Assembly (NCBI GenBank): GCA_000004985.1
Contig: GG738887.1
Length of the DNA stretch: 64,000 nucleotides
Strand: one strand, 5' to 3'
Source of the DNA: Naegleria gruberi
Taxonomy: Eukaryota
The notes under the pieces were generated by a model. That model was not told the origin of the DNA. It saw only the letters and a program-made list of their open reading frames with translations, and ran no database searches. Each line of letters begins with the position of its first letter. Position 1 is the first letter of the stretch. Of this stretch, positions 9,853 to 62,000 are shown piece by piece. The position numbers and the translations under genes are program-made.

Positions 9853-10812
9853 TTACATTAAGAGACACTTTTTTTGTTTCTTAGCAGCATAGGTTTCCAT
9901 TTGTTCCAAATCCGAATCATCAAGTCCCTTAATAAATTTAAATAAATATTAAATATTTTAAATATTTTAAATATTTTTTACAATAATATTAATAAATATA
10001 TAATTATTTAAAAAAACAAACCTTCTTTCTGAATTGTCCATTTGCTTGGTAAAGACATCTTAATAAAATATTCATTACATAATCAACACAATCCACTGAA
10101 ACTTGAGGTAACTCAATGAAGGCAGTCATATCTCCTACCTTCTTTGCAAAATTGATAATATCATCATGTGGTATTCTATCTTCGATATTTCTTTTCACTG
10201 GACCTTTTGGATTCCAATCAAATGAAAATAAGACAAATGGCATTTCCTTTTTTGCTTTCTTTTTGACACTTAATATTTCAGGAAGGTATTTTTTTTCTAA
10301 TAATTTCAGATGCTCCTTCTCGTATGGATTGAAACAGAGAACAAATCCTGTTGAGTAATAGTAGGCATCTTTTCTAATTCCAATAGTCTTTAATTTTCCA
10401 TATTTGGAATATTTAAATATTATTCAAAATATTTAAAAGACATACTTCTGCATCATCGTCATCTCTCAAATCACGAGGATCGAATGTAACTCTATGATCT
10501 GCACTCAAATTAATTACGTAATTAGAGTGTGCAAAATAAATTGGTAATTCCATTTCTTTTGGAACTTTCTTCTTTCCGTGAGTGTACAGAACCTTTCGAA
10601 AAACAATTTGAATTATCCAAAACATGTAAATTCCATTAAAATCCCAATAAACATACTCCTGTTTTATAACAATCTTTAGGTCCTACAAAACTAATGATAA
10701 TTTTTTCGTCCATTTCGTTATCGGAAAGTACTGCAGTTCTGGCAACCTCATGAAGTTTATCCTTCATCCCTTGAGAAACTGCCATTATCTGGCTAGGTGA
10801 ATATTTAGACAT
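9853..10812 (-). CDS. Hypothetical conserved protein of about 247 aa in four exons; family not recognised
   Basis: Exon model complement(join(9853..9927,10022..10387,10446..10592,10657..10812)) with GTATGT/GTTTGT donors and AAAG/TAAG acceptors. The product is MSKYSPSQIMAVSQGMKDKLHEVARTAVLSDNEMDEKIIISFVGPKDCYKTG|VLYTHGKKKVPKEMELPIYFAHSNYVINLSADHRVTFDPRDLRDDDDAE|TIGIRKDAYYYSTGFVLCFNPYEKEH…FDWNPKGPVKRNIEDRIPHDDIINFAKKVGDMTAFIELPQVSVDCVDYVMNILLRCLYQANGQFRKK|GLDDSDLEQMETYAAKKQKKCLLM. Track ORFs 10004..10243, 10413..10625 and 10636..10917 are its exons. Confidence 0.5.
9945..9990. repeat. AT microsatellite (AAATATTTTA)n within intron 3 of the preceding gene
   Basis: aaatattaaatattttaaatattttaaatatttttt read directly. 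Confidence 0.6.
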
Positions 10813-10990
10813 TTTTTTGATGATTGTTGATATCATTGACAGTATGAAAATCTGAAATCTTGCCGTAAATTTTAAGTCATAAAAAAGCCTCAAGACATCT
10901 ACGGAAATCAAAACCACTTATTACAATGGAATTTTTGAACGTGTGCTGCAATTTTGAAAAAGAATTATTATTACACCTAACTTTAAAAAA

Positions 10991-12391
10991 ATGGCACAAC
11001 TTGAATCTAGCTCTTTCAATGCTAAATTAATAATAAATGAATTGGATCGTATAAAGGCTGATTATTTGAAGACTTGCTCCGATCATGGTGATTGTATTAT
11101 TAATTCTTCAAATTCCGATTGTTTAAATTCTTCATCACATAAAACTTTGGTTCAATTTATTGGAGAGGAAATGAAATTGAAACATGCTGTCAATGTGACC
11201 GTTCATGGGAAATATCCACAGAGATTAATTTGTTTGCATTATAATCAAACGAGAGCAAATTTTGAAAATTCATTGACTAGGGCATGTCGTGGAGTAATTG
11301 TAGATTTGGAAGAGATGAGGATTGTTCATATGCCTTTTTCAAAGTTTTTCAATTTTAATGAACCAATGGCTAAGAGAGATTCAGAAATTATTTCAGAACA
11401 TTTCGATCATGTTAAAATTTATGAGAAATTCGATGGATCAATTGTGAATTTTTACTTTTTTGATGGAGAATGGAGGGTGGCTTCATCATCAACTCCTGAT
11501 GGAAGTGCCAAGATGGGATTTTATTCAGTTTCAAAGGATAAAGAGGAAAATGAAAAACATAGACAGGAATCAAAGACTTTTGTATTTGCTGATTTGGTGT
11601 GGAATGCTTTTAATGACCTCGGTTTCAAAATACCACCAACAGAATTTGAGGGAAAATATTCATTTACATTTGAATTATTAACTCAAAAACATCCATTAGT
11701 TGTACAACATCCAGAACAGGATAATTTAATTTTACATGGTGTGAGATGCTTGGAAACATTTTCAGAAAAATCAATTGAACCATTTGCTCAACAATTCAAT
11801 TGGAAATACGCAACATGCGTTAAGGAAAAATTCGGATTCAAATCATTGGAAGATGTTTCCAAGATGGCTGATGAAAGAAATGCCTATGAACACGAAGGGT
11901 TTGTCGTTTGTTATGAAACTCCAGATAACAACGGGTCTGAATCAGTTGATTTCATTAGAGTGAAGATTAAAAATTCTGAATATGTGAAAATTTCACTCAC
12001 CTTATTCGATTCCGTGGAAAAAAGAGAAAACTCCTTTATAGAAATTATTAAGAAGAATGAATCTAGTGAATTTTTAGCTTATTTCCCTCAATTCGAATCG
12101 GCTTTCCACAGATTAAAGTTAGAATATAACTCCATAGTGGAAAAGTTGAACAATGTTAGAGGGAAAATAGAGGGAATAGTTGAGGAACTTGTAAAACAGG
12201 AAACTGACACTATCAGTGTCACAAGGATGAAAGCTCTTCAATCCATTGCCATTCAACAAGCCAAAGATGAACTCAAATTCTCCAAAACGATTGCAGATAT
12301 AATGTTTGGATTATGTTCTGATAGACAACTCATGGTTGAGGATGTTCTCAAATCAATGCCTCTTAAACGATACAAAACTCTCCTTTTCTAA
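10991..12391 (+). CDS. ATP-dependent polynucleotide (RNA) ligase, Rnl1/Rnl5-like nucleotidyltransferase
   Basis: Single 466-aa ORF. Covalent nucleotidyltransferase motif I is K-x-D-G in EKFDGSIVNFYFFDGEWRVASSS, motif IV is YEHEGFVVCYETPD and motif V is DFIRVKIKNSEYVK. No OB domain of the DNA-ligase/capping-enzyme type is evident, so it is Rnl-like. Confidence 0.6.
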   Translation: MAQLESSSFNAKLIINELDRIKADYLKTCSDHGDCIINSSNSDCLNSSSHKTLVQFIGEEMKLKHAVNVTVHGKYPQRLICLHYNQTRANFENSLTRACRGVIVDLEEMRIVHMPFSKFFNFNEPMAKRDSEIISEHFDHVKIYEKFDGSIVNFYFFDGEWRVASSSTPDGSAKMGFYSVSKDKEENEKHRQESKTFVFADLVWNAFNDLGFKIPPTEFEGKYSFTFELLTQKHPLVVQHPEQDNLILHGVRCLETFSEKSIEPFAQQFNWKYATCVKEKFGFKSLEDVSKMADERNAYEHEGFVVCYETPDNNGSESVDFIRVKIKNSEYVKISLTLFDSVEKRENSFIEIIKKNESSEFLAYFPQFESAFHRLKLEYNSIVEKLNNVRGKIEGIVEELVKQETDTISVTRMKALQSIAIQQAKDELKFSKTIADIMFGLCSDRQLMVEDVLKSMPLKRYKTLLF

Positions 12392-12591
12392 TTTATTCCA
12401 ATATTAATTATGCATAAAATCTAACAATTTACATTTCTTCCATGAATTGACGAGTTCAATTACATCAATTACACATTTTGATTTGTGCTAACGAGGAGAA
12501 GTTGAAATAAGCTTCTCCCTAGATTGTAAAGTTGCTCAACTGCGCCAAAACAATCGCACAATTTCAAAAAAAAAATCAAACTAATTGAATA

Positions 12592-13965
12592 ATGACTACG
12601 TGGCCCGAACATAGAGTGTTCAAAAGGCTTCACGGAGGAGCCTTTGTGTTGCTAGCAATTTATTGTACATTTAAACGAGTGTTTAGTCATGAAGCTTTGG
12701 ATGCCTTTCCGGAACGTGCCACTCGATTGGATATTTGGATGAAGAATATGTTTTTATTGATAATGGCAACATTGATGAGCTATTATTCGATTAAAAGAAT
12801 ACTCTCGGATATATTTGTAAATTTAAAAGGAATTAAGAGACAATTATTATTTATTATTTTAATTTATTTATCATTGGCATTGTATGGACAAGTTTATTCT
12901 AATATGAGTGGAAGAATGAAATCATTTTACTTTAGAATTTTCATAACATATGTTGGTAATTTGTGGCAAATGATAGCCATGCTATTCCTTACATTTTTGC
13001 TAGTGTTTTATGTTCCGATTTACTACATGATGAGGAAATTGAGTGACAATTTTGAGACAATGAAGAAAATTATATTATTTATTTCAGTAACTTTGTGTTT
13101 GTTTGGACTTTATCATACTTTGAGTCCAAGAGTTGTAATGGAACATTCAGTGAACGTTTCAAAAGGATTGGATCAAAAGAGATACATTAAGATTATTCCT
13201 ATTAGTGATGTACATTTGGGGCATTCAATGAGTGTTAAGGATTTTTCAAATTTGAGTCAGGACATTTTGAATATTGTAAATAGAGATCCAGAAAATACGC
13301 TTGTACTTTTTATGGGAGACTTTTTCACTTTTGAATCAGAATTTAACGTTGCCTTCGAAGATGCAATTTATGAAGGATTGAAACCACTCCAATCCATTCA
13401 CAAGAATGTCTATGTAGCTCTAGGAAATCATGATATAGATCTTCTGGATACTGTTCTTTACCAGCTAAAAAGATTACAAATTACAATTCTTACAGATGAA
13501 AGTTTGGTATTGAAGAAGAAACGAATTCAATTGACAGGTTTCAATTACTTCTTTAAGAATGCTGACATTTTATCTAAACAAGTAGCAAGTAATGCCAAGA
13601 TGGAGAAGGATGTAGATTTAAGACTTTTATTATTACATAATCCTTCTCACTTTAAATATGCTGCTAGTGAATTGAATGACAAGATTCCATCTATTACTTT
13701 TAGTGGACATTTTCACGGTGGACAATTCAGTGCTCGTAATTTCTTCAGATCTCTAAGGATAGGTTTTGTTGAGGCTATTACTGGTCATCCTGACTATGAA
13801 TGGTATGGATTTGATTTTGAATCTGAAACTGTCAAGTCCCTTAGCTCTATTGCTTTGAAACCTTCCAATCCATTACTCTATGTTTGTTCAGGGGCTGGTT
13901 TTTATGGACCTCCTTTACGAATTGGCACATCCTCCGAGTTACCAATTATTCATATCAATTACTAA
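12592..13965 (+). CDS. Transmembrane protein with calcineurin-like metallophosphoesterase domain (TMPPE-like)
   Basis: 457-aa ORF with about five N-terminal hydrophobic helices. Metallophosphoesterase motifs follow: IPISDVHLG, LVLFMGDFF, ALGNHD, LLLLHNPSH and GHFHGGQ. Confidence 0.65.
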   Translation: MTTWPEHRVFKRLHGGAFVLLAIYCTFKRVFSHEALDAFPERATRLDIWMKNMFLLIMATLMSYYSIKRILSDIFVNLKGIKRQLLFIILIYLSLALYGQVYSNMSGRMKSFYFRIFITYVGNLWQMIAMLFLTFLLVFYVPIYYMMRKLSDNFETMKKIILFISVTLCLFGLYHTLSPRVVMEHSVNVSKGLDQKRYIKIIPISDVHLGHSMSVKDFSNLSQDILNIVNRDPENTLVLFMGDFFTFESEFNVAFEDAIYEGLKPLQSIHKNVYVALGNHDIDLLDTVLYQLKRLQITILTDESLVLKKKRIQLTGFNYFFKNADILSKQVASNAKMEKDVDLRLLLLHNPSHFKYAASELNDKIPSITFSGHFHGGQFSARNFFRSLRIGFVEAITGHPDYEWYGFDFESETVKSLSSIALKPSNPLLYVCSGAGFYGPPLRIGTSSELPIIHINY

Positions 13966-14196
13966 TAAATTCCATATCTTTTTCAATTTGCTGCTCACAA
14001 AGCATCCAATTAAGTTAAATAATTATTGAGGTGAACATTCCAAATTGCTATTTTTCAATTTTTAAAAAACAAAAAAATTAAACTAGTTTCATCTTCGCTC
14101 TGTTGGTCCTAAAAAATCAAGATTAATAATAGGAAGAACAATAAACAGGAACATTGGACGAAGCAAAAAATTGATACTAGCAGAGATCTGATCATT

Positions 14197-15946
14197 ATGG
14201 AATCATCATCATCGGAAAATTTAAAAAGCAAATGGGAAGTGAATAGGAAAAGTTGTCTCATAACAAGTACTTCTGCGGATGCTCCTCGACTTGAAATTTA
14301 TATAAAGAGGGGAGTTAATTTGGCTTTTAGAGAAAATAATGGTATGTTTAAACGAGTGATGATTTTACTAATAATAATAATTTATAATAATATTAATTAT
14401 TTATTTATACTTCTCATCAATCATCATCATCAATAATTAGATCCATTCCTTGTTGTGTGGTCTCATGCAAGATCGAGTGCAACCTCTGATTATTATACGA
14501 GTAGAAAATTAAAATCAAAGACAGCTAAATCATCAGCTAATCCAGAGTGGAGAGAAGTTTTTGAGGTGAGTTGTTTTGTATTGGTCAATCTAAATAATAT
14601 TATTTAAATTATTATTATTTTGTAATAATTATTAAACTTTTAGGTATCTGTTACTTGTGACGACAATAATAATCCACTTGATACAATTTCAATTTATATA
14701 TGGGACAAGGATAATTCTAAATTGGACGATTTCTTGGGATCGGCTGATATTCCACTTTCGACAATTATTAGAGATAGGGAAAATGTAATGAGTCTTCCAT
14801 TGGATGGAGTAGAAAGTGGACAACTTGATATTGTAGTATATCCTCACAATTTCGGAAAGGAAGATTCTTCTAAAATTGAAATTTCTGCATATCTGAACTC
14901 GTCACTCATTCAAAATTTAGGAGGTGGAACTGCTCCATCAATTAAGAATGTTTCAAGTTTTTTAAATACCAAGAAGGATAGTAAATTGAATAATAGATAT
15001 ACCATTATTAGAAACTTGGAAAAGGGTGGTTTTGGAATTGTAAGTTTTGGTTTCTTTGGAGCTGGATTTGACATTTTTCAAAGGTGTTTGTGGTAAAGGA
15101 TGAGAAAACAGGAGAAGAAAAAGCTTTAAAGAAAATCATGTGTAAAACATTGGAAGACGCCAACAGAGCAATCAAAGAAGCATGGCCATTTAAGAGCTTG
15201 GTTCATGAAAATCTTGTATTATATGAAGATATGTTTTTGGATGTTGAACAAAATATGGGAGAGTTTATATTCTATGTTTGTTATATTATGCCATTCTATA
15301 AACAAGGAGATTTGCATGCTTTATTAGAAGGAAAGCAAAGATCAAAGCCAAAGAAATATTTTAAACCTGTAGTATTAGCAAATTGGATTGTTCAAATAGC
15401 CAAGGGCATTGAATATCTGCATAATTATAAGGTAGTTCACAGAGATTTGAAACATAAGAATATTTTCTTTACCGAGGGATACAAACAGTTAAAGTAAGTT
15501 TTCACATAATTATGGAACTAACTGATATCTATTTAAATAGGATTGGAGATTTTGGCTTTGCAAAACAAGTAGAAGAAGGAAGAGCTTATACTCAACTTGG
15601 AAGTTCAGGATATATTGCACCAGAAATTCAGACCTCCTCTTCTGGTTATGGGCTTGGTGTAGATATTTGGAGTTTTGCAGTCATGGTCTATGAAATGATT
15701 ACATTGAAAATTGGAAGAGAACAAATCTCTCATGCCATACTGGCTCAATATAACTTTGATGATTATTGGAAGAATAATATTGAAGCTGAGGTCAAGAAAG
15801 CTTATCCTGATCCACAAATACATTCTTTACTTATCAACTTTTTGAGTAAGACACTGCGGATAGATCCTAACGAAAGAGCTAGTGCATCCGAATGTGTGAA
15901 AATGGCTAGAGAACTCAGACAAATGTTTGTTGAAAAGGAAAAATAA
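14197..15946 (+). CDS. C2 domain-containing Ser/Thr protein kinase (five exons)
   Basis: Exon model join(14197..14341,14441..14565,14644..15039,15084..15493,15541..15946), with introns of 99, 78, 44 and 47 nt (GTATGT/GTGAGT/GTAAGT donors, TTAG/TTTAG/AAAG/ATAG acceptors). The N-terminal C2 domain is LEIYIKRGVNLAFRENNGDPFLVVWSHARSS…NPEWREVFEVSVTCDD…IYIWDKDNSKLDDFLGSADIPLSTI. The kinase has the G-loop EKGGFGIVFVV, the lysine motif ALKKI, the catalytic loop HRDLKHKN, then DFGFAK and GYIAPE. Confidence 0.75.
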
Positions 15947-15964
15947 ACTTGTACAATATATTCT

Positions 15965-17671
15965 TTACTTGTCAGTTACTTGCTCCTTTACAAAATCATA
16001 ATTTAACGGGAAGTCCTCATTTGCTTTGAGTTCTTGTTCAAGAGCATTCATAATCGCAAGTACAACATCCTCTCTCCAATAACGACCAGCAACTTGAATG
16101 CAAACTGGTAACCCCTTACTATTCTTAAAGTTTTGATTACAAATCTTAAGTGGGAGTTCATTTGGGTTTTTAGAGAGAGGGCAGGAAATGTGATTTTCTT
16201 CTTGTTCTGATTCTGAAACTCTGGTTATAGGACAAACACCAGCCGGGAGTCCAAGGTAATTGAAAAGATGTACATATGTCATGTTCAAAACAACATCTGG
16301 CACATTCTCATGTTTACAATTGACAGAGCTTGCAGGGCACAAAACAGCATCATATCTTCCCTTATCAAGCAACTCGAAGAATGATCTTCTGAAATCATCT
16401 CTGTTAGCTACATGTCCCCACAATTCTGAAACAGTAATAGGAAGGAAACTATCCATTGATTTGGCTAAAATTGTTTGACCCAACCATGAAACCACAGTTC
16501 CCAACACTCCAACAAACCATTTCGGTAACAAGGATACATATTTGATACTCTTGGCCATTGGTGTTAATTTACTTCCAGCTATTTCCTTTCTATAACAGCT
16601 CATTCCATCTCCCATTAAGAAATGAACATAGCTCCTCCAATTCTCAAATGTTTTCATTTCTTTTGGAAGTTCAATTTCTTCGACGTGAGCTCCAAGTTTT
16701 CTCAATGTTTGAGCTGCCTCATCAAGACCTCTTTTAACTGATTTTGGAACAGTGAGTATTCCATTGTCTTTGAAAAGTGCAATTCTCAACTTGGAAATAT
16801 CAATCTTGTATGGATCTCTCAACTCTACAGGTGGATGCTTGATAGATTCATGTGAAAATCCACTAGAATAATCATCGTATTCATATCTTGTTAAAACTTT
16901 CATGGCAGTAATCAAGTTACTTGTAGATCGTCCCATAGGACCCATTTGTGACATGATAGCTTCCATTCCTCTATACAGCTCAGCATGTCCACTCAATGTT
17001 AATCTTCCACTTGTTGGTTTCAATCCAAATATTCCACAATGTGATGAAGGCAATCTAATAGATCCTCCAATATCTGATCCAATTCCCAATATTGATCCTC
17101 CAGCTCCAATAATTGCTCCTTCTCCACCACTACTTCCACCAGAGGTACGTGTCAAATCGAATGGATTATTGGTTCTTCCATAAACTGGATTATCAGAATC
17201 ATCAGCAGCCAACATTAATGCAACATTTGTCTTTCCCAAAACGATGGCTCCAGCATTCTTTAATCTCTTCACAAGAATTCCATCATCCTGAGCGAGAATA
17301 CCCACTCTACTGCTTAAACCCATTGTACATTGAGTTCCTTTAACATGAATAGACTCTTTAATGGTAACAGGAATTGAAAATAAGGGTTTTTCACAGAGAA
17401 TCTTCTCAATCCATTCACTCATTAAATTTTCATCTTGATCCGTAGGTCTCTCCTCAGATAACCACTTATCCAATTTCAATGCCTCTTCTCTGGCCTCTTC
17501 AAAGAGTGGAATACAAACAGCATTTAAAAGTTTGTTGGTTTTCTCAATTCGTGAGATGAAATATTCAATCAATTTCAGTGATGTTAATTCTCCTCGGAGC
17601 ACTTGACGAGATAATTGTTCAGCAGGAATTTGAAAAATTTGTTTTCTATCATCATCAACATGTTGCGACAT
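15965..17671 (-). CDS. Amidase-signature enzyme, fatty-acid amide hydrolase-like
   Basis: 568-aa single-exon ORF. The AS signature is GGSSGGEGAIIGAGGSILGIGSDIGGSIRLPSSHCGIFGLKPTSGR, upstream of the conserved catalytic-lysine region of AS enzymes. Confidence 0.8.
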   Translation of the reverse strand: MSQHVDDDRKQIFQIPAEQLSRQVLRGELTSLKLIEYFISRIEKTNKLLNAVCIPLFEEAREEALKLDKWLSEERPTDQDENLMSEWIEKILCEKPLFSIPVTIKESIHVKGTQCTMGLSSRVGILAQDDGILVKRLKNAGAIVLGKTNVALMLAADDSDNPVYGRTNNPFDLTRTSGGSSGGEGAIIGAGGSILGIGSDIGGSIRLPSSHCGIFGLKPTSGRLTLSGHAELYRGMEAIMSQMGPMGRSTSNLITAMKVLTRYEYDDYSSGFSHESIKHPPVELRDPYKIDISKLRIALFKDNGILTVPKSVKRGLDEAAQTLRKLGAHVEEIELPKEMKTFENWRSYVHFLMGDGMSCYRKEIAGSKLTPMAKSIKYVSLLPKWFVGVLGTVVSWLGQTILAKSMDSFLPITVSELWGHVANRDDFRRSFFELLDKGRYDAVLCPASSVNCKHENVPDVVLNMTYVHLFNYLGLPAGVCPITRVSESEQEENHISCPLSKNPNELPLKICNQNFKNSKGLPVCIQVAGRYWREDVVLAIMNALEQELKANEDFPLNYDFVKEQVTDK

Positions 17672-17737
17672 TTTTTTTATTTGTATATGCTCATTAAAAC
17701 TTCATCCAACAAATTGATTGATGTCCAAATTAGTCAA

Positions 17738-17796
17738 ATTAAATATTTAAATATTCTTTAATAATTTAAATATTTAACATTTAAATATTTAAAAAA
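17738..17796. repeat. Clustered TTAAATATTT/AAATATTTAA motifs in the 127-bp divergent intergenic region between the amidase and terpene synthase genes
   Basis: ttaaatatttaaatattctttaataatttaaatatttaacatttaaatattt read directly. The same decamer recurs at 9945-9990, 10396-10435, 23441-23462 and 63696-63715. Confidence 0.5.
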
Positions 17797-17798
17797 AA

Positions 17799-18923
17799 AT
17801 GATGAACAAAATATCTATCGCTCATCTTCCCTACTTTTTAATGAAATGTCCTCCTCCGAGAATTCACGATCCAAATCGCCAACTTGCCATAGACCATCTA
17901 ATCCAACAATGCTTAAAACATTCAATAATTTCCTCCCCGAAACATGCTCAATTATTTCGTTCCAAACTCGACCAATACAATCATATTGGATTAATTTATA
18001 ATTGTTATTATCCATCGAATTTAAATTATCAAAATGTTGTTGATGTTGATGATGCTGGAAAGGCTTGCCAACAAGTACAATTGCAACATTTGAAATTTAT
18101 TACCAATTATTTCTTCTTCTTGTTTAGTGTTGATGATCGGATTGATAGTGTTGTGGAGAATGATGATAGGGAGGCGATGGAAAGGAAGAATTGTTTGATT
18201 GATCAGTTGGTTGAGGTTTTGAGGGTTTATAGAAAGTTGGAGGATGGTAAGGTTGAGAGTAAGGATCCACATGTCAATTTCCTGATTCAAATTATGGAGG
18301 ATTTACATTTAATGACTGGAAATCAGGAGACAATTGATAGATTTGTGGGAAATATGGAGGGATTTTTCAATATTGGAGTGAGGGGTAATCAAGAGAATGA
18401 AACACCTGAAAATTATTTGGAGAGGAGAATTTATGATAGTGCCACTTATGCCATGTTGAATGTTTTGGAAATTACTTCGAGTAGAAATGCAGTTGGGTTG
18501 ATTGGGGAGGATTACAATACTGAACTCTTCTCAAAAGCTCACAGATTGTGTGCTATTGTTTTTTCAATGGTTAATGATTTACTTTCCTATCATAAGGATG
18601 TGGTACTGCCATCAGGAGGAAATTTATTGGGATTGGATTCGAATTTATCGTATATTCAGGTATTGTTGAAGAATAATAAGGATCTTTCATTAGAGCAGGC
18701 AACAAATCAATGTTTAGACTATATCCTTGAATCGAAATCTCAATTTGAGGCCATTATGAAATTGTGTGTAGATAATTGTAACGAGAAGCAATTGGATTAT
18801 ATTAGAGGAGTAGAAAAGCTCATGGATGGAATGTGTCTTTGGATGCTCTATTCCAACAGATACAGACACGAGGAGCAAGTTTATGAGGAATTGACAAAAT
18901 TGGTTGATGAGGAAAAATTCTAG
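17799..18923 (+). CDS. Class I terpene synthase (microbial/amoebal-type TPS)
   Basis: 374-aa ORF. It has an Asp-rich metal-binding motif FLFSVDDRID (DDxxD-like) and a downstream NSE/DTE-type motif VNDLLSYHKD, spaced as in sesquiterpene synthases of dictyostelids, bacteria and fungi. Confidence 0.7.
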   Translation: MMNKISIAHLPYFLMKCPPPRIHDPNRQLAIDHLIQQCLKHSIISSPKHAQLFRSKLDQYNHIGLIYNCYYPSNLNYQNVVDVDDAGKACQQVQLQHLKFITNYFFFLFSVDDRIDSVVENDDREAMERKNCLIDQLVEVLRVYRKLEDGKVESKDPHVNFLIQIMEDLHLMTGNQETIDRFVGNMEGFFNIGVRGNQENETPENYLERRIYDSATYAMLNVLEITSSRNAVGLIGEDYNTELFSKAHRLCAIVFSMVNDLLSYHKDVVLPSGGNLLGLDSNLSYIQVLLKNNKDLSLEQATNQCLDYILESKSQFEAIMKLCVDNCNEKQLDYIRGVEKLMDGMCLWMLYSNRYRHEEQVYEELTKLVDEEKF

Positions 18924-18961
18924 ATTTTGAAATGATAAATTTATATTCACACATTAATTGT

Positions 18962-20812
18962 TTACAAGTATTGAAGATTATGTTGTTGAATCTTATATCT
19001 AGAGAATGTATCCAGGGCAAGGTTTGACTTGACAGCATTGAACAGCTTATCGAACAAATCAAGTTGTCCTACACCTTTAACAATAACACCCATTTCCTTC
19101 TTTACAACATGGCCAGCAAGATTGATTGGAAAGGATGATTTTTCCTCCATTAAGAAGGTCTGAATGATACTCTCTTGTTTGATCATTCTCTCATGAGTAT
19201 GTTTAAATGTCTTGTATTCCAATACTGCATCCAAGAATAACATATTTTCCTCAGATTTTTCAGATTTACAGAATTGTTTAAATCTTTCCTTTTCTTCAGA
19301 GTTTAAGAGTAATCTGTCAAATTCATTGTCCATTGAGAAGAGTGAACTGGATTTAGAAATTGAAGAGCCCAACATTTGTGATGAAATTCTACCAACAAAG
19401 ACAAACATATGTTGATCTCCAGATGACATTTTAGATTTGGTGATATAGGCATCAAAATCAATATTCTTTCTCTTCTTTGTGACACCAGTGAATGGATGTG
19501 ACATGAGATCATCATAACTGGAAATAACTTGACTCAAGCCCTCACCTGCTTTGGCAGCCTCTTTCAATTGAGGGAAGATTTTATCGAGAGGCATCTTGGT
19601 AATTCCTTCAACATCCACAGCACTATAACCAAATCTTTCATAGAATGCAGTGTTTGCATGTGAAATAAAACCATCAGGTGTAACTGTCAAGACAATATCC
19701 TTAATACTATTCATAATGGAGGTTGTTCTTTCTTCAGCAACTGAAATTCTTTCTAAAAGCTTTTTCAATAATTCCTGCTCTTGAATTTGTTGCTCCAAGA
19801 GAACATCCAAACTATCCAACATGTAATTAATATTCTTGGAGACAGTTCCTAGCTCATCAGTACCTGTTGTTGAATCTGAAACTGAAACTCTTTGTTTGCT
19901 GTCATTGGATGCTGTAATACGTTGAATTTGAGTGGTGAGTGTTGTGAGACGTGACAAGACTCTTCTCTCAATGAAAAAGATGACAATCATGGAAGCAATG
20001 GCACAAACAACAAGCAATAAACCAATGGCCAACAAGACCGATTGAATTCCCAACAAGTAAACATCTCTTGCAATATCAGTTCTTACAATCATCAACTTGT
20101 TACCATAAATATCATTCACTAATTCTAGAGAGGCAAATCTTTGTTCACTCAACATAGTTCCATTAGTTTTCCAGCATTGTCTCTTTGAAAGAGAATCAGA
20201 AGAGAGAACTTCATAGGCAAAAACATCCAAATTGTCCCAATCAGCAGAAGTTTGATAAACATAAGTTCCATTCACTGAGCTCACTTGTTTAGAATAACTT
20301 GAAACAACTGCATCACTTGTATCCGAAAGTAAATGGAATGAGCAACACAACTGAGCACTATTTGCCAATGCATTAATAAATTTCGAGCTCATAATTCTAC
20401 CAAAAACCAAAACTCCTGAAGTATCTGATTGATCTGTATAATCACTCACAGACAATGGAGATGCAGAAAGCATAACAAGTTGTGAATTGTAATTATAAAA
20501 TCCACCATTTCTAGTATTTGGAGAGTCCATGTTTTTCATCAATGGATGACTTGATGGGAGGTATTGTAAAAACGTTGGAAGTGATGAAATACTTGTAGAA
20601 ATAATTCCAGTTGAGAAATCAATTGATCTTGGAACAGCAACTGTTCCATTCTTGAAATAATAAACAACCCAATTAACTTTAGATGATGTCATGATTGCCT
20701 TTGGAAAGTTTGAATCCATATAATCACTAACTTCATTGACAGTTGCCAAATTATTGGCATATCTCTTGAAAATATCATACGGAACTGTCCAAGCAGAAAA
20801 TGGCAATAAATT
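18962..20812 (-). CDS. Single-pass transmembrane sensor-like protein: extracellular domain, TM, coiled coil, PAS, C-terminal RGS domain; 5' end unresolved
   Basis: Track ORF 18962..20806 starts on TTG and the frame is open to a stop at about 20815, so the ATG exon is missing. One TM helix is IQSVLLAIGLLLVVCAIASMIVIFFI. After it comes a HAMP-like/coiled-coil segment (RRVLSRLTTLTTQIQRITAS…ELLKKLLERISVAEERTTSI), then a PAS-like segment (IKDIVLTVTPDGFISHANTAFYERFGYSAVDVEGI), then an RGS box (LLNSEEKERFKQFCKSEKSEENMLFLDAVLEYKTF…LDTFSRYK). Confidence 0.65.
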   Translation of the reverse strand, partial: NLLPFSAWTVPYDIFKRYANNLATVNEVSDYMDSNFPKAIMTSSKVNWVVYYFKNGTVAVPRSIDFSTGIISTSISSLPTFLQYLPSSHPLMKNMDSPNTRNGGFYNYNSQLVMLSASPLSVSDYTDQSDTSGVLVFGRIMSSKFINALANSAQLCCSFHLLSDTSDAVVSSYSKQVSSVNGTYVYQTSADWDNLDVFAYEVLSSDSLSKRQCWKTNGTMLSEQRFASLELVNDIYGNKLMIVRTDIARDVYLLGIQSVLLAIGLLLVVCAIASMIVIFFIERRVLSRLTTLTTQIQRITASNDSKQRVSVSDSTTGTDELGTVSKNINYMLDSLDVLLEQQIQEQELLKKLLERISVAEERTTSIMNSIKDIVLTVTPDGFISHANTAFYERFGYSAVDVEGITKMPLDKIFPQLKEAAKAGEGLSQVISSYDDLMSHPFTGVTKKRKNIDFDAYITKSKMSSGDQHMFVFVGRISSQMLGSSISKSSSLFSMDNEFDRLLLNSEEKERFKQFCKSEKSEENMLFLDAVLEYKTFKHTHERMIKQESIIQTFLMEEKSSFPINLAGHVVKKEMGVIVKGVGQLDLFDKLFNAVKSNLALDTFSRYKIQQHNLQYL

Positions 20813-28220: not shown

Positions 28221-31200
28221 ATGATCACTGCTTCTTCATCTTCGGGTGAAAGGAATGAAAAACTTTCATCCATCGCTTTGGATATTAATAATGATAGGAA
28301 TAACAACAAACCTCTCTTATCCTTTACCATCTACAATAATTGTTCATCGTCTTCATTAGAAGCTTCCTTGCCAAATACTGCAAGTTTATTAAATTGTGAA
28401 TTTAGTATTTCACCAATCAATGCTACTGATGAGAACAATCAAGTTACAATGATTGGAGTGGAAATTACACAAGCCAAGTTTGTAAATGTTAGGAGAACTG
28501 TATTTGATGCAATTTTAAGTGATTTTCCTTCGGGTTGGATTGAACCAAAGGATGTGGATCATGTTTTCTTTACTGAACATGAGTCAGTTATCAAATTGAT
28601 GGAAGGAGCTCTTTGCTATGATGATGATGGGTTCAAGTTCTTTTCTACATTGCAATCAGCACCTGTTGATGTAGATTTAAAAGATTTGAATAGTTTTTGT
28701 GATGATCTTTTTGGGTTGAATGGAACATTTGTTCTGTATGATGAATCAGCTCCATTATGTATTAGTTGTAAAGAACTGTAACAAGTGGAATAGTTATGCA
28801 AGATTGGGAAGTGGAGATATTCCAGAGGCATTCCACAAGTTTAGGATTTATCATTCGAAAATTACTGTCTTGCAAGAGTCTCAGGCCTATGAGCTGATTG
28901 ATCAAAGTGACGAAATCAAATATTATTTAAGTTGTGTTCAAGAGAATTTACCACTCGTCAGGGTTACGCCAAGAATTCTATCCATGTTTACAGAAGGATT
29001 GGAAAAGCTTACAATTTCCAATAGTTTCTCAGAGAATTCTTTGGCAATGTCAGTATATACAGCTTCCTTCTCCAACATTTTGCAATCTCATCCTTTTTCA
29101 AATGAGGATCAAATCATTTCACTTATGAATTCATCTTTAACATGCTACGAATTTCCCAGAGTAGATCACAGATTTATTAGGTCAATTACTTCAAAATGTA
29201 GAAATGGAGTTTTTGAATGTCAAGTACATTTACCTGAGATATCCGAGACTAACAGGTTATTTAACAAGTTAGGAACTGATGGATTTCTTAAAGTGAAAAT
29301 CATTGGACAAGTTCCCTCTGGAATATATTTACAGGGAAAGACCTATTTACCGCTTGGAGGTTCATCCAACATGATGAGGGAGAGAAATATGTATTTTTAT
29401 GACTCATCCTTGTATGAATCTGTGGAGACTATCATTTCACAAATGGGAGAAATATCTATTGATAATTTGCATCAATTATGTGAAACTGAATGTAATGAAC
29501 CGGAGCAAATCAATAATGGAGAACCTGGATATCTCACTCCCTCTATGACTCATTCATTAATTGCTTTGGGCGTTCAACCACTAGTTCTTCAAACTATTTT
29601 TGAAGAATGGTTCAATTCTACCGTCAGTAATTTGACCAATCCAAACTTTTTGCTTGATTTACTAAAGGGAAGGTGTAGGGAAACTCTTCCTGCTGTCCAA
29701 AATCTCTCCGAGATACCAGACAACCCATTTATTGAAGACTTATTGCGACATTTAGTATCTTCCCATTTGCAGAAAGTTCAAAATAACCTCATTATTCCAA
29801 TTGACAAGTCAATTACAACTACAAGTTTAATTGATGAGAATAAGTGTTTAAAAGAAAATGAAATGATGGTTATACTTGGAAATGAATATTTAGAGGATGG
29901 TACGATTGTTCTAGTGTGTAATGAGCCATGTCTTTCCCAATCAAATGTTAAACTTTTCACAGTTAGAAATGACGAAACTTTGAAAGTCAAGTACGAAACA
30001 AACCATTCATTAGTTATTCTCCCAAGTATCCTGAAGAGTGATAGTGTCTTTGCATGTTGGGACTCAAGAATGATTCCAACTCTTGTTTCCAGTCAAATTA
30101 CCAATTCATACCAAAAATTGAAAACAGTACAATCTGAGGATTTACAGAGTCAAATTCTTGACGGATGGATTGCTGTTTCTGACAAGGAAGGCGCAACATC
30201 CACAAAGGCAATTGAGCTTTCTAATTTATTTAATGAAATTAGGAATAGCAACAAGATTGAGCTTCCTAATTGGTTTAACAGCTGTCTAATTCCATCTCTA
30301 GATATTTGGCAAAATTCAGATTGGACCAACTAGAAAAAATAGAAAGCAAATTAAATGGATATAAGAAGAATCTTGCAGATCAACAGAAAGAGCAGGATGA
30401 TATTTACATAGTAGGATCCTTATCAATTCTACTCCATGATCCAAACGAAACAGACTGTGATTGGTTTATTGAACCAGTTTCTGATAATCCAACATTCTTT
30501 GATGATCTATGTCACAGACTTTCGACTTATTTCAAACCAATCAAGGAAGAATATCACAAATCCGTTCCTCTATTTAGAATTTATTTACAAGAAAGGGATT
30601 TGAGATTTTTAGAATTGATAGATTTGACCAATGGAGATACTGGGTTCAGAAAAAAGCATCACATGAGATTATATTTAGCACAACAGCCGAAACTCTTGCT
30701 TATTCTCAGAATTTTATTCGATATTATCAAAAAGATTTGTGCTTTCCATGTTAAAACTTTCCAACTCACTTGGGAAGTTGTGGATTTTTGCATTTTGAGA
30801 AATTACATTCACAGGGAAAGACCACCAACGAGAAAGGAGTCAGTGGACCAGGAGAAACAGTTCTCAGACTCTTCTTTTATGAAATCAGTTCTTTCTAAAT
30901 GTTTGGAATCTGAAAATTTTGAAAAGGAATCCGAACTAATCATTGATTTTATGAAATTTTTCAAATTGAAAAATAACATGGAATTTCCAGATAATCTTGA
31001 CGATTCAAAATCCTATTCAGCTACCAGTGATGAAAGAAAACTTGAATATGCTCATGATTTGATTCAAACATGTCTTATCAACTTGCACCTTTATAGAGAT
31101 TTCACCAAGGCAATTTTGCCAACACAAGTAATTCAAAAAACATTTGAGGAATTTAAGAATGTTGATGCTAAACCTGTTTTCAGAGCTGAATCTAGAGATT

Positions 31201-59052: not shown

Positions 59053-62000
59053 TTAATCAATTACAGTTCTTCTTTCAGCTGATCCAATTACAGTTTTTTG
59101 AACTGGCTTTGTAGTTGTGCTAACAGGAACATGAGTGGTTGATGTTGGAGTTGAGTGAAGAAGAGAGGATGAGCCACGGGAATATTCGCCTCCTTCTTGT
59201 GGCCAATCACCAATTTGTCCTTCAGTTGTTCCAGCAGTGTTAATTCCCATTCTACCAATAATTCCAGTCAACATTCCACCTTGCTCTCCTTGACCAGCCA
59301 TTACATTACCTTGAATGATAGTTTGTTCAATCAAGTCATTCAATCTTTCGATCAATTCTCTAATGTTGGTATTCAAGGCAGTTTCAAGATTGTCATGAAT
59401 CTTTCTTCTGACACGACTTTGAATGATTGGTGAAAGCATCTTGAGCATGAGTTTGTGCTTTTCAGCTTGCTTGAATTTGATATGGAGAGTGTCAACACCA
59501 ACTACAATTCCCTTAACATAGAATGGACGATTCTGACTTAATCTGGCCTTAAGCTTGAGTTTGATGTTAATACCACCTCTATCGAAATCAATATCCATTA
59601 AACCACGATCAGAAATTGATGGGAATGAACGACGATCGAATAAGAAACCAACATCCTTCAAGTGAGCAGTCATACCAAACAAGTGAGCTCCAATGAGGGT
59701 TGCACTTTCAGCCAATCTGTCAGTTGGTTTCAATTCTTCATATTTCATGGAGGTTCTATTCTTGACCTTGAATTTAACATCATCTGGGAGAATATCATTG
59801 GCCTTCAATGTAATATTGGAAATCTTAAAGTATTGACTTCCATCATCACCTTCAACCTCAATGGCATTCCAATTATTGATGGCTTCTTGAATGGCAACAA
59901 AGAGGATGGTTCTGATTTGTTCCAATGCAGATGGCTTCAATTGGAATTTACCTTGTTCATCAAGGAAGAGACGTGAAATTAACTTTTGACTTCTGTCACG
60001 AATTTCAGTATTCAATTCATCATTACGCATACTGGTTAATAATTCACGACCATAGGTAAGCATGTCATTAGTCAAGTCCATGTTCTTCTTCTCTTCAAGA
60101 ACAGTTCTACATTGCCACAATCTTTGTCTCAATTGTTCCTTTTCTTGATGAGATTCTAATAAAGTTGGTTGATTACCATATCTTCTGAAATCATTCATGA
60201 TATCTCTGAGAACTCCCTTCATTCTTTCATCAGTTCTCAAGTGAATAAAGAAAGCATTAGTAGTATCAAGCCACTTATCAAACATTTCCTTATTAGAGAA
60301 TTCATAAAGAATCAACTTGGCATAATTGAGTAAGCTCTTGAAATCATCATCTTCTCTCAATCTTTCAACTGTCTTGGTCTTTTCACCTCCTTGAGTGGCA
60401 GTATCACCAAACAAGCTCTTAACTTGATTAAACAAGTTGAACAATCCATAGAGAGCTCTTTGATAGTTTGGATCCTTGGAGAAACGTTTGTTCAATTGGA
60501 CATAACGATCAATGAGGGAATCTTCAATTTCTCTTCTGTTCTTATCATGGCTGACTGGTTCTTCTTGAGTGGATTGAGAACCAGAAATATTGGAAAGTCC
60601 AGATTTGATTGTAGGTTGTTGTTGACCAACCATTGATTGTTGAGGAACTTGTGGAATATTGGATTGGTATGGTTGACTAATTCCACTTTGGAAACCTTGT
60701 TGGGAGACATCAGATGGTTGCCATTGTTGTTGACCAAATTGTTGTTGTTCAGAAACTGGTCTAAATTGTTGAGCTTGGACATTGGATTGGAGAGATGGTT
60801 CTCTATATTGATCATCAACAATATTCTTATCAGAGAAATGACCAACTTGTCCAATTGACTGTTGGAAAGGAGCAATTCCTTGATGGGAGGTACCATAAAG
60901 TGAAGTTGGTTTCAACTCTTGACTAATACCAGAACTCAAAGGTTGTTGTTGACTGCTACCAATTCCAGAGTATCCAGAACTCAAAGGTTGTTGTTGAGAG
61001 AATTCTGGTTGTTGATAAGAAGGTTGACCAACCATTGATTGTTGAGGAATTTGTGGAATATTGGATTGTTGACCCATTCTTTGTTGACTAAGGTTTGGAT
61101 CAGTAACTCCAAATCCAGAATATTTTTCTTGAGATGGAACATTTCCAACACTTCCCATACCACTACCACTTGCGAAAGATGAGGAAGGTTGTTGCCATTG
61201 CTGACCTACCATTCCAGGTTGTTGACTAACCATTCCAGATTGACCAAATTGTTGACCATATTCTTGCTGTTGTTGCATTCTGGAGAATTCACCTGGTTCA
61301 CTAAGCTGTCCTTGATTTCTCTTCAATTCTTCTTCAGAGTGAACTTTTGAAGGGAGCAATGATTCTTCTTGCTTGTGTTGGAGATTGAGTGTTGCACCAC
61401 TGACAGAGGAAACTACTTCAGAGGTGGTTTCATGAACTGGTTCAGTCTTGCTACTCTCATCAGAAACACCCATTGATTTGATGCCACTTGCCAATTTGGA
61501 AATAATATTACCAGAGCCCTTCTCATCAATGTTGACTTCACCTGCAAGAATTTGCAAATATTGGAAGAATTCACCAATGGCCTCTCTGAAATCAGCACTT
61601 CTAATAAGTTGGAAGACAAAATCACGAAGACCAACAATGGATTGATAGACATCCCTGGTAGCTCCCTTCTGAGAAGTTTCGTATCCACCTTTTTTAAAAA
61701 ACATCATCCAACCATCTTGTTTTCAATGAACAAAATCATGAAAATACTTACGTTTCACACCATATCTGATATCTTCTCCAAATTCTGGAGCATACTTTTG
61801 AGAGAGATTTCTGAAACAAACGAGAAATTGTTGCATCTTCTCATCAGAGTTTCTATCTTCAATGATCAATCTGATCAGATCCAAGAGAATTAAGGTGTCT
61901 CTCTGGATTGTCTTACCTTCCCTTGTGAGGAGTGATTGACTGGAGAGAATGGATTGCTTGGCTTGTTCAATACCTACAAGAACAGCTTCATTGGATGGTG

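What the first reader, a model, noticed from the sequence alone, without database searches (positions are those of the whole stretch)
10991..13965. Stand-alone Rnl-type ATP-dependent RNA ligase next to a membrane-anchored metallophosphoesterase
The 466-aa protein has ligase nucleotidyltransferase motifs I (KFDGS), IV (EGFVV) and V (RVKIK) but no OB or other DNA-ligase accessory domain. It resembles T4 Rnl1, baculovirus and Naegleria Rnl-type RNA repair ligases, which are rare in eukaryotes outside tRNA ligase. About 200 bp downstream, in the same orientation, is a calcineurin-like metallophosphoesterase with about five N-terminal TM helices. In bacterial RNA-repair cassettes a metallophosphoesterase (for example the Pnkp phosphatase) heals RNA ends for the ligase. 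A eukaryotic, possibly membrane-associated, heal-and-seal pair would be new.
Basis: partly seen in the sequence, partly recalled or inferred. Interest (0 to 1): 0.5.

Follow-up and report, generated by a model that had tools for sequence, protein, structure and literature searches.

The report
Known Naegleria RNA ligase, unrelated neighbour
The gene is a real T4-type RNA repair ligase of the amoeba Naegleria gruberi that a 2015 paper already listed by accession, and the membrane phosphoesterase gene next to it sits there only in N. gruberi and one very close relative, so the two are most likely not a repair pair.

Summary
The window is Naegleria gruberi DNA. ORF 10991-12391 (+) is identical to EFC41136.1/XP_002673880.1.

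**The ligase is real and is Rnl1-type.**
- It matches Pfam PF09511 at 2e-30 and PHROG 562 at 1.6e-31.
- Eleven of twelve T4 Rnl1 key residues are conserved, including the adenylylation lysine K146.
- Unciuleac & Shuman 2015 (PMC4408790) already list this accession as one of seven N. gruberi Rnl1-family ligases. None has been tested biochemically.

**The neighbour is as described.** ORF 12592-13965 (+) encodes five N-terminal hydrophobic helices followed by an intact metallophosphoesterase domain of the bacterial YaeI / 'MPP superfamily' kind.

**The heal-and-seal reading fails its own linkage test.**
- In N. lovaniensis, N. fowleri and a fourth Naegleria-like lineage, the ligase follows a HAM1_N gene and is followed by other genes.
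- In N. lovaniensis and N. fowleri the phosphoesterase orthologue lies elsewhere, after a DEAD-box helicase.
- Only N. gruberi and an 85%-identical relative have the adjacency.
- In 25 bacterial loci of this ligase subfamily, 10 have a P-loop kinase neighbour and 9 of these carry the HAD_PNKP phosphatase domain, as in T4 Pnkp.

Verdict: two ordinary, separate genes. Low novelty.

The parts
10991..12391 (+). Intron-less gene for a 466-aa Rnl1-family ATP-dependent RNA ligase (N. gruberi EFC41136.1 / XP_002673880.1 / NAEGRDRAFT_51245)
11426..11440 (+). Motif I KFDGS (residues 146-150). K146 is the predicted AMP-accepting lysine.
   Evidence: Aligns to T4 Rnl1 K99-D101-G102-S103 and is invariant in all 9 homologues plus T4.
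11288..11350 (+). Rnl1-type N-terminal sub-domain residues R100, K118 and F120 (residues 100-120)
   Evidence: Align to T4 Rnl1 R54, K75 and F77 and are invariant. R54 and K75 contact the ATP gamma phosphate and are essential in T4 Rnl1 (PMC6379707).
11894..11971 (+). Motif IV EGFVV (residues 302-306) and motif V RVKIK (residues 323-327)
   Evidence: Align to T4 E227-G228 and K240/K242 and are invariant.
11975..12388 (+). All-helical C-terminal domain (residues 329-466), predicted to share the T4 Rnl1 C-domain fold
12392..12591 (.). 200-bp AT-rich intergenic spacer between two separate genes
   Evidence: Stop codon at 12389-12391 and next ATG at 12592. The annotated ligase protein ends here.
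12592..13965 (+). Gene for a 457-aa membrane-anchored metallophosphoesterase. Five hydrophobic helices occupy residues 9-178 (nt 12616-13125) and the catalytic domain occupies residues 198-457 (nt 13183-13962).
   Evidence: PF00149 1.2e-8. YaeI model NF008460 2.7e-12, below its cut-off. All metallophosphoesterase motifs are conserved with bacterial 'MPP superfamily phosphohydrolase' homologues that also carry N-terminal hydrophobic segments. Hydropathy and AF2 helices agree. Orthologues exist in N. fowleri and N. lovaniensis at 50% and 47% identity.
59053..61707 (-). Context only: the HAM1_N-domain gene that lies immediately upstream of the ligase in other Naegleria. Here it is 47 kb away on the opposite strand.
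   Evidence: PF19343 4.2e-27. tblastx shows orthology to the gene upstream of the ligase in L001, L002 and L038.

Best explanation
These are two independent Naegleria gruberi genes that became neighbours through a lineage-specific rearrangement.

**Gene 1** encodes a catalytically competent Rnl1-family ATP-dependent RNA ligase. It is one of seven paralogues catalogued in 2015.
- Inferred mechanism: K146 attacks ATP to form ligase-AMP, with R100 and K118 holding the gamma phosphate and E228, E302, K325 and K327 completing the active site.
- AMP is then passed to an RNA 5'-phosphate, and the 3'-OH attacks to seal the break.
- The helical C-terminal domain is predicted to have the T4 Rnl1 C-domain fold. 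This suggests the substrate is a break in a single-stranded loop, such as a tRNA anticodon loop, rather than a nick in a duplex.
- Any end-healing would come from an unlinked kinase/phosphatase of the Pnkp type, which is the partner this ligase subfamily has in bacteria and in amoebozoan fusion proteins.

**Gene 2** encodes a five-helix membrane-anchored metallophosphoesterase of the YaeI / MPP-superfamily kind. It has the same architecture as animal TMPPE. Its substrate is unknown and nothing connects it to the ligase.

**Shown versus inferred.** Family membership, residue conservation, predicted fold and gene order in relatives are shown. Enzymatic activity, substrate and partner are inferred.
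For: **Identity and prior listing.** The ORF is 100% identical to EFC41136.1. That accession is named among the seven N. gruberi Rnl1 family members in PMC4408790.

**Family.**
- PF09511 2e-30 and PHROG 562 1.6e-31 over the full length.
- T4 residues R54, K75, F77, K99, D101, G102, E159, E227, G228, K240 and K242 are all conserved.

**Gene order.**
- N. lovaniensis and N. fowleri have HAM1_N, then the ligase, then Aldedh.
- A fourth lineage has HAM1_N, then the ligase, then a weakly F-box-like gene.
- The HAM1_N orthologue in this window lies at 59,278-62,073 on the minus strand.
- The phosphoesterase orthologues in N. lovaniensis and N. fowleri follow a DEAD-box helicase. In N. lovaniensis this is a different contig from the ligase.

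**Usual partner of this ligase subfamily.**
- A cyanobacterial homologue overlaps a downstream kinase + HAD_PNKP gene by 4 bp.
- Among 84 neighbour ORFs at 25 bacterial loci, 10 carry AAA_33 and 9 carry HAD_PNKP.
- Amoebozoan relatives fuse the ligase to a kinase plus a DSP phosphatase.

**Phosphoesterase subfamily.** It matches YaeI, LpxG and SbcD-type models. Its nearest solved relatives by sequence are Mre11/SbcD, nucleotidases and LpxH, with no Pnkp phosphatase among them.
Against: - The pair is same-strand, only 200 bp apart, and retained in a relative at 85% identity. Co-regulation in this lineage is therefore not excluded.
- One of the 25 bacterial loci (L026, an Abditibacterium MAG) has a phosphoesterase of the same subfamily two genes downstream of the ligase on the same strand (E 9e-36 against the family profile).
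- No activity, expression or localisation data exist for either protein.
- T4 K119, which I recall as essential, is Ser166 here.
- The C-domain resemblance rests on a predicted model. The domain's sequence alone shows nothing against the T4 C-domain.
Confidence: 0.85

Rival explanations
1. One reading: the ligase and the membrane phosphoesterase form a eukaryotic heal-and-seal RNA repair pair. The phosphoesterase would remove 2',3'-cyclic or 3'-phosphates at a membrane, and the ligase would seal the ends.
For: The two genes are on the same strand with a 200-bp gap. The adjacency is kept in an 85%-identical Naegleria. One Abditibacterium MAG has an Rnl1 ligase, a C26 peptidase and a same-family phosphoesterase in a row. 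From general knowledge, some metallophosphoesterases such as the Clostridium thermocellum Pnkp phosphatase domain do heal RNA 3' ends.
Against: - The genes are unlinked in N. lovaniensis, N. fowleri and a fourth Naegleria-like lineage.
- HAM1_N followed by the ligase is the shared arrangement, so the N. gruberi adjacency is most simply explained as derived.
- There is no kinase to make the 5'-phosphate.
- The subfamily's recurrent partner is a T4-Pnkp-type kinase/HAD phosphatase, found at 10 of 25 bacterial loci against 1 of 25 with a phosphoesterase nearby.
- The phosphoesterase is not close to any Pnkp phosphatase.
- Eukaryotic neighbours are not operons, and in a genome with about one gene per 2.6 kb (PMC4408790) same-strand neighbours are commonplace.
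- The other Abditibacteriota genome lacks the arrangement (L022).
Confidence: 0.05
2. The ligase is the sealing component of a Trl1-like tRNA-splicing or unfolded-protein-response pathway. It would join 3'-OH,2'-phosphate ends to 5'-phosphate ends, with the kinase and cyclic phosphodiesterase supplied in trans.
Against: - There are no KIN or CPD domains in the 466-aa protein.
- Trl1-LIG is classed as a distinct clade (Rnl6) because of its own C-domain (PMC6379707).
- N. gruberi has two RtcB ligases that could handle tRNA splicing (PMC4408790).
- The closest relatives are bacterial RnlA-Pnkp cassettes.
Confidence: 0.05
3. The protein is a degenerate or repurposed Rnl1 homologue that no longer ligates RNA.
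For: T4 K119 is replaced by Ser166. Naegleria sequences carry a 17-residue insertion between motifs I and III. The score against the T4 RnlA equivalog model TIGR02308 is 26 bits against a cut-off of 242.
Against: Eleven other catalytic residues are invariant across five Naegleria sequences that are only 54-85% identical overall, which indicates purifying selection on the active site. The Ser/Met/Asn at the K119 position is shared with the bacterial members that sit in Pnkp cassettes, so it is a subfamily trait and not decay.
Confidence: 0.04

Closest known systems
Bacteriophage T4 RNA ligase 1 (RnlA, gp63; PDB 2C5U, 5TT6, 9DO4), the Rnl1 family
   Different: - Only 17-18% identity to T4.
- Far below the TIGR02308 equivalog cut-off (26 against 242 bits).
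- About 45 extra N-terminal residues, a 17-residue Naegleria-specific insertion after motif I, and a longer C-domain.
- K119 is Ser.
- The host is a eukaryote and no Pnkp gene is adjacent.
Bacterial RnlA-Pnkp cassettes (cyanobacteria, myxobacteria, Abditibacteriota, Planctomycetota)
   Same: These are the closest non-eukaryotic relatives, at 27-34% identity with E down to 1e-40 to 5e-49. They share the Ser/Asn/Met at the T4 K119 position and the conserved ESSEFLAYF segment in the C-domain.
   Different: The bacterial genes are about 360 aa. At 10 of 25 loci they are followed by a T4-Pnkp-like kinase/HAD-phosphatase gene of about 282 aa. The Naegleria gene has no such neighbour in any of the five Naegleria loci examined.
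The other catalogued N. gruberi RNA ligases (six more Rnl1 paralogues, five Rnl2, NgrRnl/Rnl5, two RtcB; Unciuleac & Shuman 2015)
   Same: This protein is one of the seven listed Rnl1 members (EFC41136.1).
Fungal and plant tRNA ligase Trl1, LIG domain (Rnl6; PDB 6N0T, 9QW7)
   Same: [quoted passage not shown]
   Different: There are no kinase or cyclic phosphodiesterase domains. The C-domain does not align with the Trl1 C-domain.
YaeI / YkuE / 'MPP superfamily phosphohydrolase' membrane-anchored metallophosphoesterases, and animal TMPPE (five transmembrane helices plus a metallophosphoesterase domain, function unknown; PMC8327215)
   Same: The neighbour gene has the same architecture: N-terminal hydrophobic helices followed by a metallophosphoesterase domain with all metal-binding motifs. 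Its best curated model is YaeI (2.7e-12). Its homologues beyond Naegleria are bacterial proteins of 357-392 aa with this layout.
   Different: It is below the YaeI equivalog cut-off (46.7 against 188 bits). It has a Naegleria-specific insertion of about 30 residues before the last strands. Orthology to TMPPE itself was not tested.

Membership tests
Rnl1 family (T4 RnlA-type ATP-dependent RNA ligase) | Match to the family profile above the curated threshold | tested here: met
   PF09511 scores 106.8 bits against a cut-off of 28.3, E 2e-30, covering profile positions 2-227 of 227. PHROG 562 gives 1.6e-31 over profile positions 34-370 of 377.
Rnl1 family (T4 RnlA-type ATP-dependent RNA ligase) | Covalent nucleotidyltransferase motifs I, III, IV and V with the catalytic lysine | tested here: met
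   K146/D148/G149, E228, E302/G303 and K325/K327 align to T4 K99/D101/G102, E159, E227/G228 and K240/K242. All are invariant in 10 sequences.
Rnl1 family (T4 RnlA-type ATP-dependent RNA ligase) | [quoted passage not shown] | tested here: met
   R100, K118 and F120 align to T4 R54, K75 and F77. The roles of R54 and K75 are described in PMC6379707.
Rnl1 family (T4 RnlA-type ATP-dependent RNA ligase) | The family-specific all-helical C-terminal domain of T4 Rnl1 (RNA ligase families are defined by their appended domains) | tested here: inconclusive
Rnl1 family (T4 RnlA-type ATP-dependent RNA ligase) | Equivalog of T4 RnlA (NCBIfam TIGR02308 cut-off) | tested here: not met
   26.2 bits against a cut-off of 242.25. 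It is a family member but not a close equivalog of the phage enzyme.
Rnl1 family (T4 RnlA-type ATP-dependent RNA ligase) | ATP-dependent ligase-AMP formation and sealing of 3'-OH/5'-phosphate RNA ends | not testable with these tools
   This needs recombinant protein. No published assay of this protein was found.
Heal-and-seal RNA repair cassette (T4 Pnkp + Rnl1, or bacterial Pnkp/Hen1) | An end-healing enzyme (5'-kinase plus 3'-phosphatase or cyclic phosphodiesterase) linked to the ligase, with the linkage conserved across relatives | tested here: not met
   No kinase is adjacent. Ligase-phosphoesterase adjacency is absent in N. lovaniensis, N. fowleri and locus L038. Bacterial relatives pair with a kinase/HAD Pnkp at 10 of 25 loci.
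Heal-and-seal RNA repair cassette (T4 Pnkp + Rnl1, or bacterial Pnkp/Hen1) | The phosphoesterase belongs to the Pnkp-type phosphatase subfamily | tested here: not met
   The family profile's solved relatives are Mre11/SbcD, nucleotidases and LpxH. Foldseek finds UshA, SbcD and a zebrafish dimetal phosphatase. No Pnkp phosphatase appears in either list.
Trl1-type tRNA ligase | Ligase fused to polynucleotide kinase and cyclic phosphodiesterase domains, with a Trl1-specific C-domain | tested here: not met
   PF09511 is the only significant Pfam domain in the 466 aa. Only 259 residues align to Trl1-LIG.
Rnl5 (NgrRnl / DraRnl) | N-terminal OB-like domain before the nucleotidyltransferase domain, and no C-terminal domain | tested here: not met
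Membrane-anchored YaeI / MPP-superfamily metallophosphoesterase (the neighbour gene) | Intact dimetal phosphoesterase motifs (DxH, GD, GNH, H, GHxH) | tested here: met
   D206, H208, G242, D243, G278, N279, H280 and H349 are invariant in 8 sequences. GHFHGGQ aligns to bacterial GH[ST]H[KGH]GQ. PF00149 scores 36 bits against a cut-off of 21.5.
Membrane-anchored YaeI / MPP-superfamily metallophosphoesterase (the neighbour gene) | N-terminal multi-pass hydrophobic region ahead of the catalytic domain | tested here: met
   Five hydropathy peaks lie within residues 9-178 and match five long predicted helices. The region is conserved in Naegleria orthologues and present in the bacterial homologues. 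No dedicated transmembrane predictor was available.
Membrane-anchored YaeI / MPP-superfamily metallophosphoesterase (the neighbour gene) | Equivalog of E. coli YaeI (NF008460 cut-off) | tested here: not met
   46.7 bits against a cut-off of 188.
Animal TMPPE | Orthology (reciprocal best match or phylogeny) to TMPPE | not testable with these tools
   The AlphaFold-database fold library was unavailable. The profile search returned only Naegleria and bacterial proteins. Only the architecture is shared: five transmembrane helices plus a metallophosphoesterase domain (PMC8327215).

The most novel reading that the evidence does not exclude
In the N. gruberi lineage a rearrangement has placed an Rnl1 ligase directly upstream of a membrane metallophosphoesterase, and the two have become co-regulated. 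The result would be a membrane-associated RNA end-processing and sealing unit with no counterpart in other eukaryotes. A single Abditibacterium locus with the same two families two genes apart would then hint at a recurrent functional link.
Probability: 0.03. Interest if true: 0.6.

Novelty: already known. Interest (0 to 1): 0.15.

Why it matters
It matters little as a discovery. The ligase has been listed by accession as an Rnl1-family member of N. gruberi since 2015, and the proposed pairing with the phosphoesterase is not supported.

What remains of value:
- None of Naegleria's seven Rnl1 paralogues has been characterised.
- This one is conserved across the genus, including the pathogen N. 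fowleri.
- It belongs to a subclade shared with bacterial RnlA-Pnkp cassettes and with amoebozoan multi-domain RNA-repair fusions.
- That makes it a reasonable candidate for anyone asking why Naegleria keeps so many RNA ligases.

Tried and rejected
1. **TMPPE orthology.** The third homology search, with the 8-sequence phosphoesterase profile, returned only Naegleria and bacterial proteins. Orthology stays untested.
2. **C-domain homology by sequence alone.** A profile of alignment columns from residue 332 onward did not score the T4 C-domain above 1000 shuffled copies. The C-domain claim rests only on the predicted structure and on full-length profile coverage.
3. **Origin of the gene.** A neighbour-joining tree of 34 sequences gave a solid Naegleria clade (100% bootstrap). 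Its grouping with Amoebozoa had only 20% support and the deeper order among bacteria was unresolved. I make no claim about horizontal transfer.
4. **Single-sequence search of PDB sequences.** It found nothing meaningful. The profile search was needed.
5. **Foldseek of the phosphoesterase model against the PDB.** It gave only generic superfamily hits. The model is weak (mean pLDDT 67, membrane part about 50).
6. **Other features.** There are no tRNA genes, no Rfam families and no PADLOC defence models in the window or the two proteins.
7. **Membrane topology.** I considered inferring it from the positive-inside rule. Loops on both sides are rich in Lys and Arg, so I dropped it.
8. **One fusion gene.** I considered whether the two ORFs form one gene. 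This was rejected because of the in-frame stop, the annotated protein ending there, and the separate locations of the orthologues.
Full report
**Origin of the window and check of the observation.** The 466-aa product of ORF 10991-12391 (+) is identical to Naegleria gruberi EFC41136.1 / XP_002673880.1 (NAEGRDRAFT_51245, 'predicted protein'). The window is therefore N. gruberi nuclear DNA, with about 33% G+C. The second ORF, 12592-13965 (+), encodes 457 aa and starts exactly 200 bp after the ligase stop codon. The quoted motifs are present: KFDGS at residues 146-150, EGFVV at 302-306 and RVKIK at 323-327.

**What the first gene is.**
- Pfam assigns residues 99-331 to RNA_lig_T4_1 (PF09511) at 2e-30 and 106.8 bits, against a cut-off of 28.3.
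- PHROG 562, the T4 gp63 family, matches residues 78-463 at 1.6e-31.
- A profile of nine homologues finds T4 Rnl1 chains 2c5u, 9do4 and 5tt6 at about 1e-16, and fungal tRNA ligase only at 0.004.
- An AlphaFold2 model has mean pLDDT 81 and pTM 0.73. It shows a mixed alpha/beta domain followed by an all-helical region from residue 329.
- With Foldseek, T4 Rnl1 is the best hit (1e-14). Fungal Trl1-LIG (about 6e-9), Rnl3, Rnl2 and NgrRnl/Rnl5 (about 2e-5) follow, and DNA ligases appear only at 6e-3 or worse.

The protein is an Rnl1-type RNA ligase.

**Active site.** I aligned the nine homologues with the T4 Rnl1 sequence recovered from the alignment printed. T4 R54, K75, F77, K99, D101, G102, E159, E227, G228, K240 and K242 correspond to R100, K118, F120, K146, D148, G149, E228, E302, G303, K325 and K327. 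All are invariant in all ten sequences. R54 and K75 contact the ATP gamma phosphate and are essential in T4 Rnl1 (PMC6379707). The one difference is T4 K119, which I recall from the 2003 mutational analysis as essential; I could not verify this in the library. It is Ser166 here and Ser, Met or Asn in the bacterial relatives, so it looks like a trait of the subfamily rather than decay.

**C-terminal domain.** About 75 more residues align with T4 Rnl1 than with ligases that share only the adenylyltransferase domain. This suggests that the C-domain has the T4 Rnl1 fold, which in T4 confers specificity for breaks in the tRNA anticodon loop (PMC6379707). The support comes from a predicted model only. 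A profile of the C-domain alone does not score the T4 C-domain above shuffled controls.

**Already in the literature.** Unciuleac & Shuman (RNA 2015; PMC4408790) state that N. gruberi encodes seven Rnl1 family members and list their accessions, including EFC41136.1. They also list five Rnl2 members, the Rnl5 enzyme NgrRnl and two RtcB ligases. This is the only paper in the library that mentions the protein. I found no characterisation of any Naegleria Rnl1 paralogue.

**What the second gene is.**
- The 457-aa protein has five hydrophobic peaks within residues 9-178, coinciding with five long predicted helices.
- A Metallophos domain follows (PF00149, 1.2e-8).
- The best curated model is the E. 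coli phosphodiesterase YaeI (2.7e-12, below its equivalog cut-off). LpxG, SbcD and LpxH models score more weakly.
- All metal-binding motifs are conserved with bacterial 'predicted MPP superfamily phosphohydrolase' proteins of 357-392 aa that have the same layout of N-terminal hydrophobic segments.
- The solved relatives by sequence profile are Mre11/SbcD, nucleotidases and LpxH. Foldseek gives UshA, SbcD and a zebrafish dimetal phosphatase. No Pnkp-type phosphatase appears in either list.
- Animal TMPPE is described as a five-transmembrane metallophosphoesterase of unknown function (PMC8327215). The architecture is the same, but I could not test orthology.

**Linkage test.**
- N. lovaniensis has HAM1_N, then the ligase, then an aldehyde dehydrogenase, then an actin-like gene. 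N. fowleri has the same order.
- A fourth Naegleria-like lineage from a JGI metagenome (58% identity) has HAM1_N, then the ligase, then a weakly F-box-like gene.
- The phosphoesterase orthologues of N. lovaniensis (47% identity, on a different contig from the ligase) and N. fowleri (50%) both follow a DEAD-box helicase next to a polyketide synthase.
- Only an unnamed Naegleria at 85% identity keeps the N. gruberi order. That is expected at such a short distance.
- In the window, the HAM1_N orthologue lies at 59,278-62,073 on the minus strand, 47 kb away.

HAM1_N followed by the ligase is the arrangement shared by three lineages. The ligase-phosphoesterase adjacency is most simply a rearrangement product in the N. 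gruberi lineage. No outgroup was examined, so the polarity is inferred.

**What this ligase subfamily normally pairs with.**
- The exhaustive profile search finds 14,170 cluster representatives at E ≤ 0.001, and most of the top 150 listed are 350-400 aa.
- The closest non-Naegleria relative, from a cyanobacterium, overlaps by 4 bp a downstream gene with AAA_33 kinase and HAD_PNKP phosphatase domains. This is the T4 Pnkp arrangement.
- At 25 bacterial loci (cyanobacteria, myxobacteria, Abditibacteriota, Planctomycetota and others) I took up to two ORFs on each side, 84 in all. Ten carry AAA_33 and nine carry HAD_PNKP.
- A profile of the Naegleria-type phosphoesterase hits one of the 84. This is in an Abditibacterium MAG with the order SprT, FtsZ, ligase, C26 peptidase, phosphoesterase. 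The other Abditibacteriota genome lacks it. I treat it as probably coincidental but record it as the one point in favour of the rival model.
- In amoebozoan transcriptomes the same ligase module is fused to a kinase, a dual-specificity phosphatase and an AEP primase-polymerase, or to a Cid1/MTPAP-type nucleotidyltransferase. In this sample it is never fused to a metallophosphoesterase.

**Surroundings.** The neighbouring genes are an ordinary eukaryotic mix: an RPA-like gene, a striatin gene, a small conserved gene divergent from the ligase, an intron-split protein kinase, an amidase, a terpene synthase, a CHASE4-HAMP-PAS-RGS protein, an RdRP and others. There are no tRNA genes, Rfam families or defence-system models. 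Nothing else in the window points to RNA repair.

**Conclusion.** The phosphoesterase belongs to a subfamily with no known link to RNA end healing. The most likely picture is an active Rnl1-type ligase that seals 3'-OH/5'-phosphate breaks in RNA loops through K146-AMP, with any end-healing supplied by unlinked enzymes, sitting by chance next to a YaeI/TMPPE-like membrane phosphoesterase. Activity, substrate and partners are inferred and untested.

Noticed in passing
L003 1-10879 (Logan SRR25266757 contig 5087); corresponds to window about 10,021-20,757: This contig comes from a Naegleria about 85% identical to N. gruberi. Its first and last 30 bp are identical, which is a circular path in a k=31 assembly graph. 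It is a circular permutation of the window block carrying the small gene, the ligase, the phosphoesterase, the kinase, the amidase, the terpene synthase and the CHASE4-RGS gene. It could be a tandem duplication, an extrachromosomal circle or an assembly artefact.
   Followed up: partly
window 12592-13059 (residues 1-156 of the phosphoesterase ORF): The public N. gruberi gene model for the phosphoesterase (P0011, 301 aa) starts at Met157 of the 457-aa ORF and so lacks four of the five hydrophobic helices. The longer ORF is supported by orthologues that align from about residue 3. The annotation is probably truncated at the N-terminus.
   Followed up: yes
window 59053-61707 (-), compared with L001 4397-7689, L002 3-2993 and L038 2-1102: The HAM1_N-domain gene lies immediately upstream of the ligase in three other Naegleria lineages. 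In N. gruberi it is 47 kb away on the opposite strand, which indicates an intrachromosomal rearrangement with a breakpoint next to the ligase.
   Followed up: partly
P0028 (1244 aa) and P0037 (1012 aa) from Pyxidicula operculata; P0068 (1341 aa), P0084 (1490 aa) and P0136 (1039 aa) of unknown source: Close relatives of this ligase occur as large fusions. One type is AAA_33 kinase + dual-specificity phosphatase + AEP primase-polymerase + Rnl1. The other joins Rnl1 to a Cid1/MTPAP-type nucleotidyltransferase, in one case with an R3H domain as well. These look like single-chain RNA repair or tailing machines in testate amoebae. I do not know of a description of them.
   Followed up: partly
P0054 (721 aa); P0109 and P0126 have similar length and the same split-match pattern: This Rnl1 homologue is interrupted by an intein with a LAGLIDADG homing endonuclease (Pfam Intein_splicing and LAGLIDADG_2 lie between the two halves of the ligase match).
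   Followed up: no
L026 201-4853 (uncultured Abditibacterium MAG, CAXUDZ010000143.1): The genes SprT-like, FtsZ, Rnl1 ligase, C26 peptidase/GATase and a YaeI-type metallophosphoesterase are all on one strand. The phosphoesterase scores E 9e-36 against the Naegleria-family profile. This is the only one of 25 bacterial loci with this family near the ligase, and the other Abditibacteriota genome (L022) does not share it.
   Followed up: partly
window 11483-11560 (ligase residues about 165-190): All five Naegleria ligases carry a 17-residue charged insertion (SVSKDKEENEKHRQESK in N. gruberi) between motif I and motif III. It is absent from the bacterial, phage and amoebozoan relatives and is modelled with lower confidence. 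Just before it, T4 K119 is replaced by Ser166.
   Followed up: partly
window 17799-18923 (+): A 374-aa ORF matches the microbial-type terpene synthase C-terminal domain (PF19086, 4.4e-12). It lies between an amidase gene and a CHASE4-HAMP-PAS-RGS gene.
   Followed up: no
window 28720-31925 (+): Two overlapping long ORFs (537 and 539 aa) lie here, and the first matches the eukaryotic RNA-dependent RNA polymerase domain (PF05183, 1.1e-17). They are probably one gene interrupted by an intron or a frameshift.
   Followed up: no
window 10022-10817 (-): A small gene of at least two exons has no Pfam match and is transcribed divergently from the ligase, with about 170 bp between the start codons. It is conserved at about 90% amino-acid identity in the close relative L003.
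   Followed up: no
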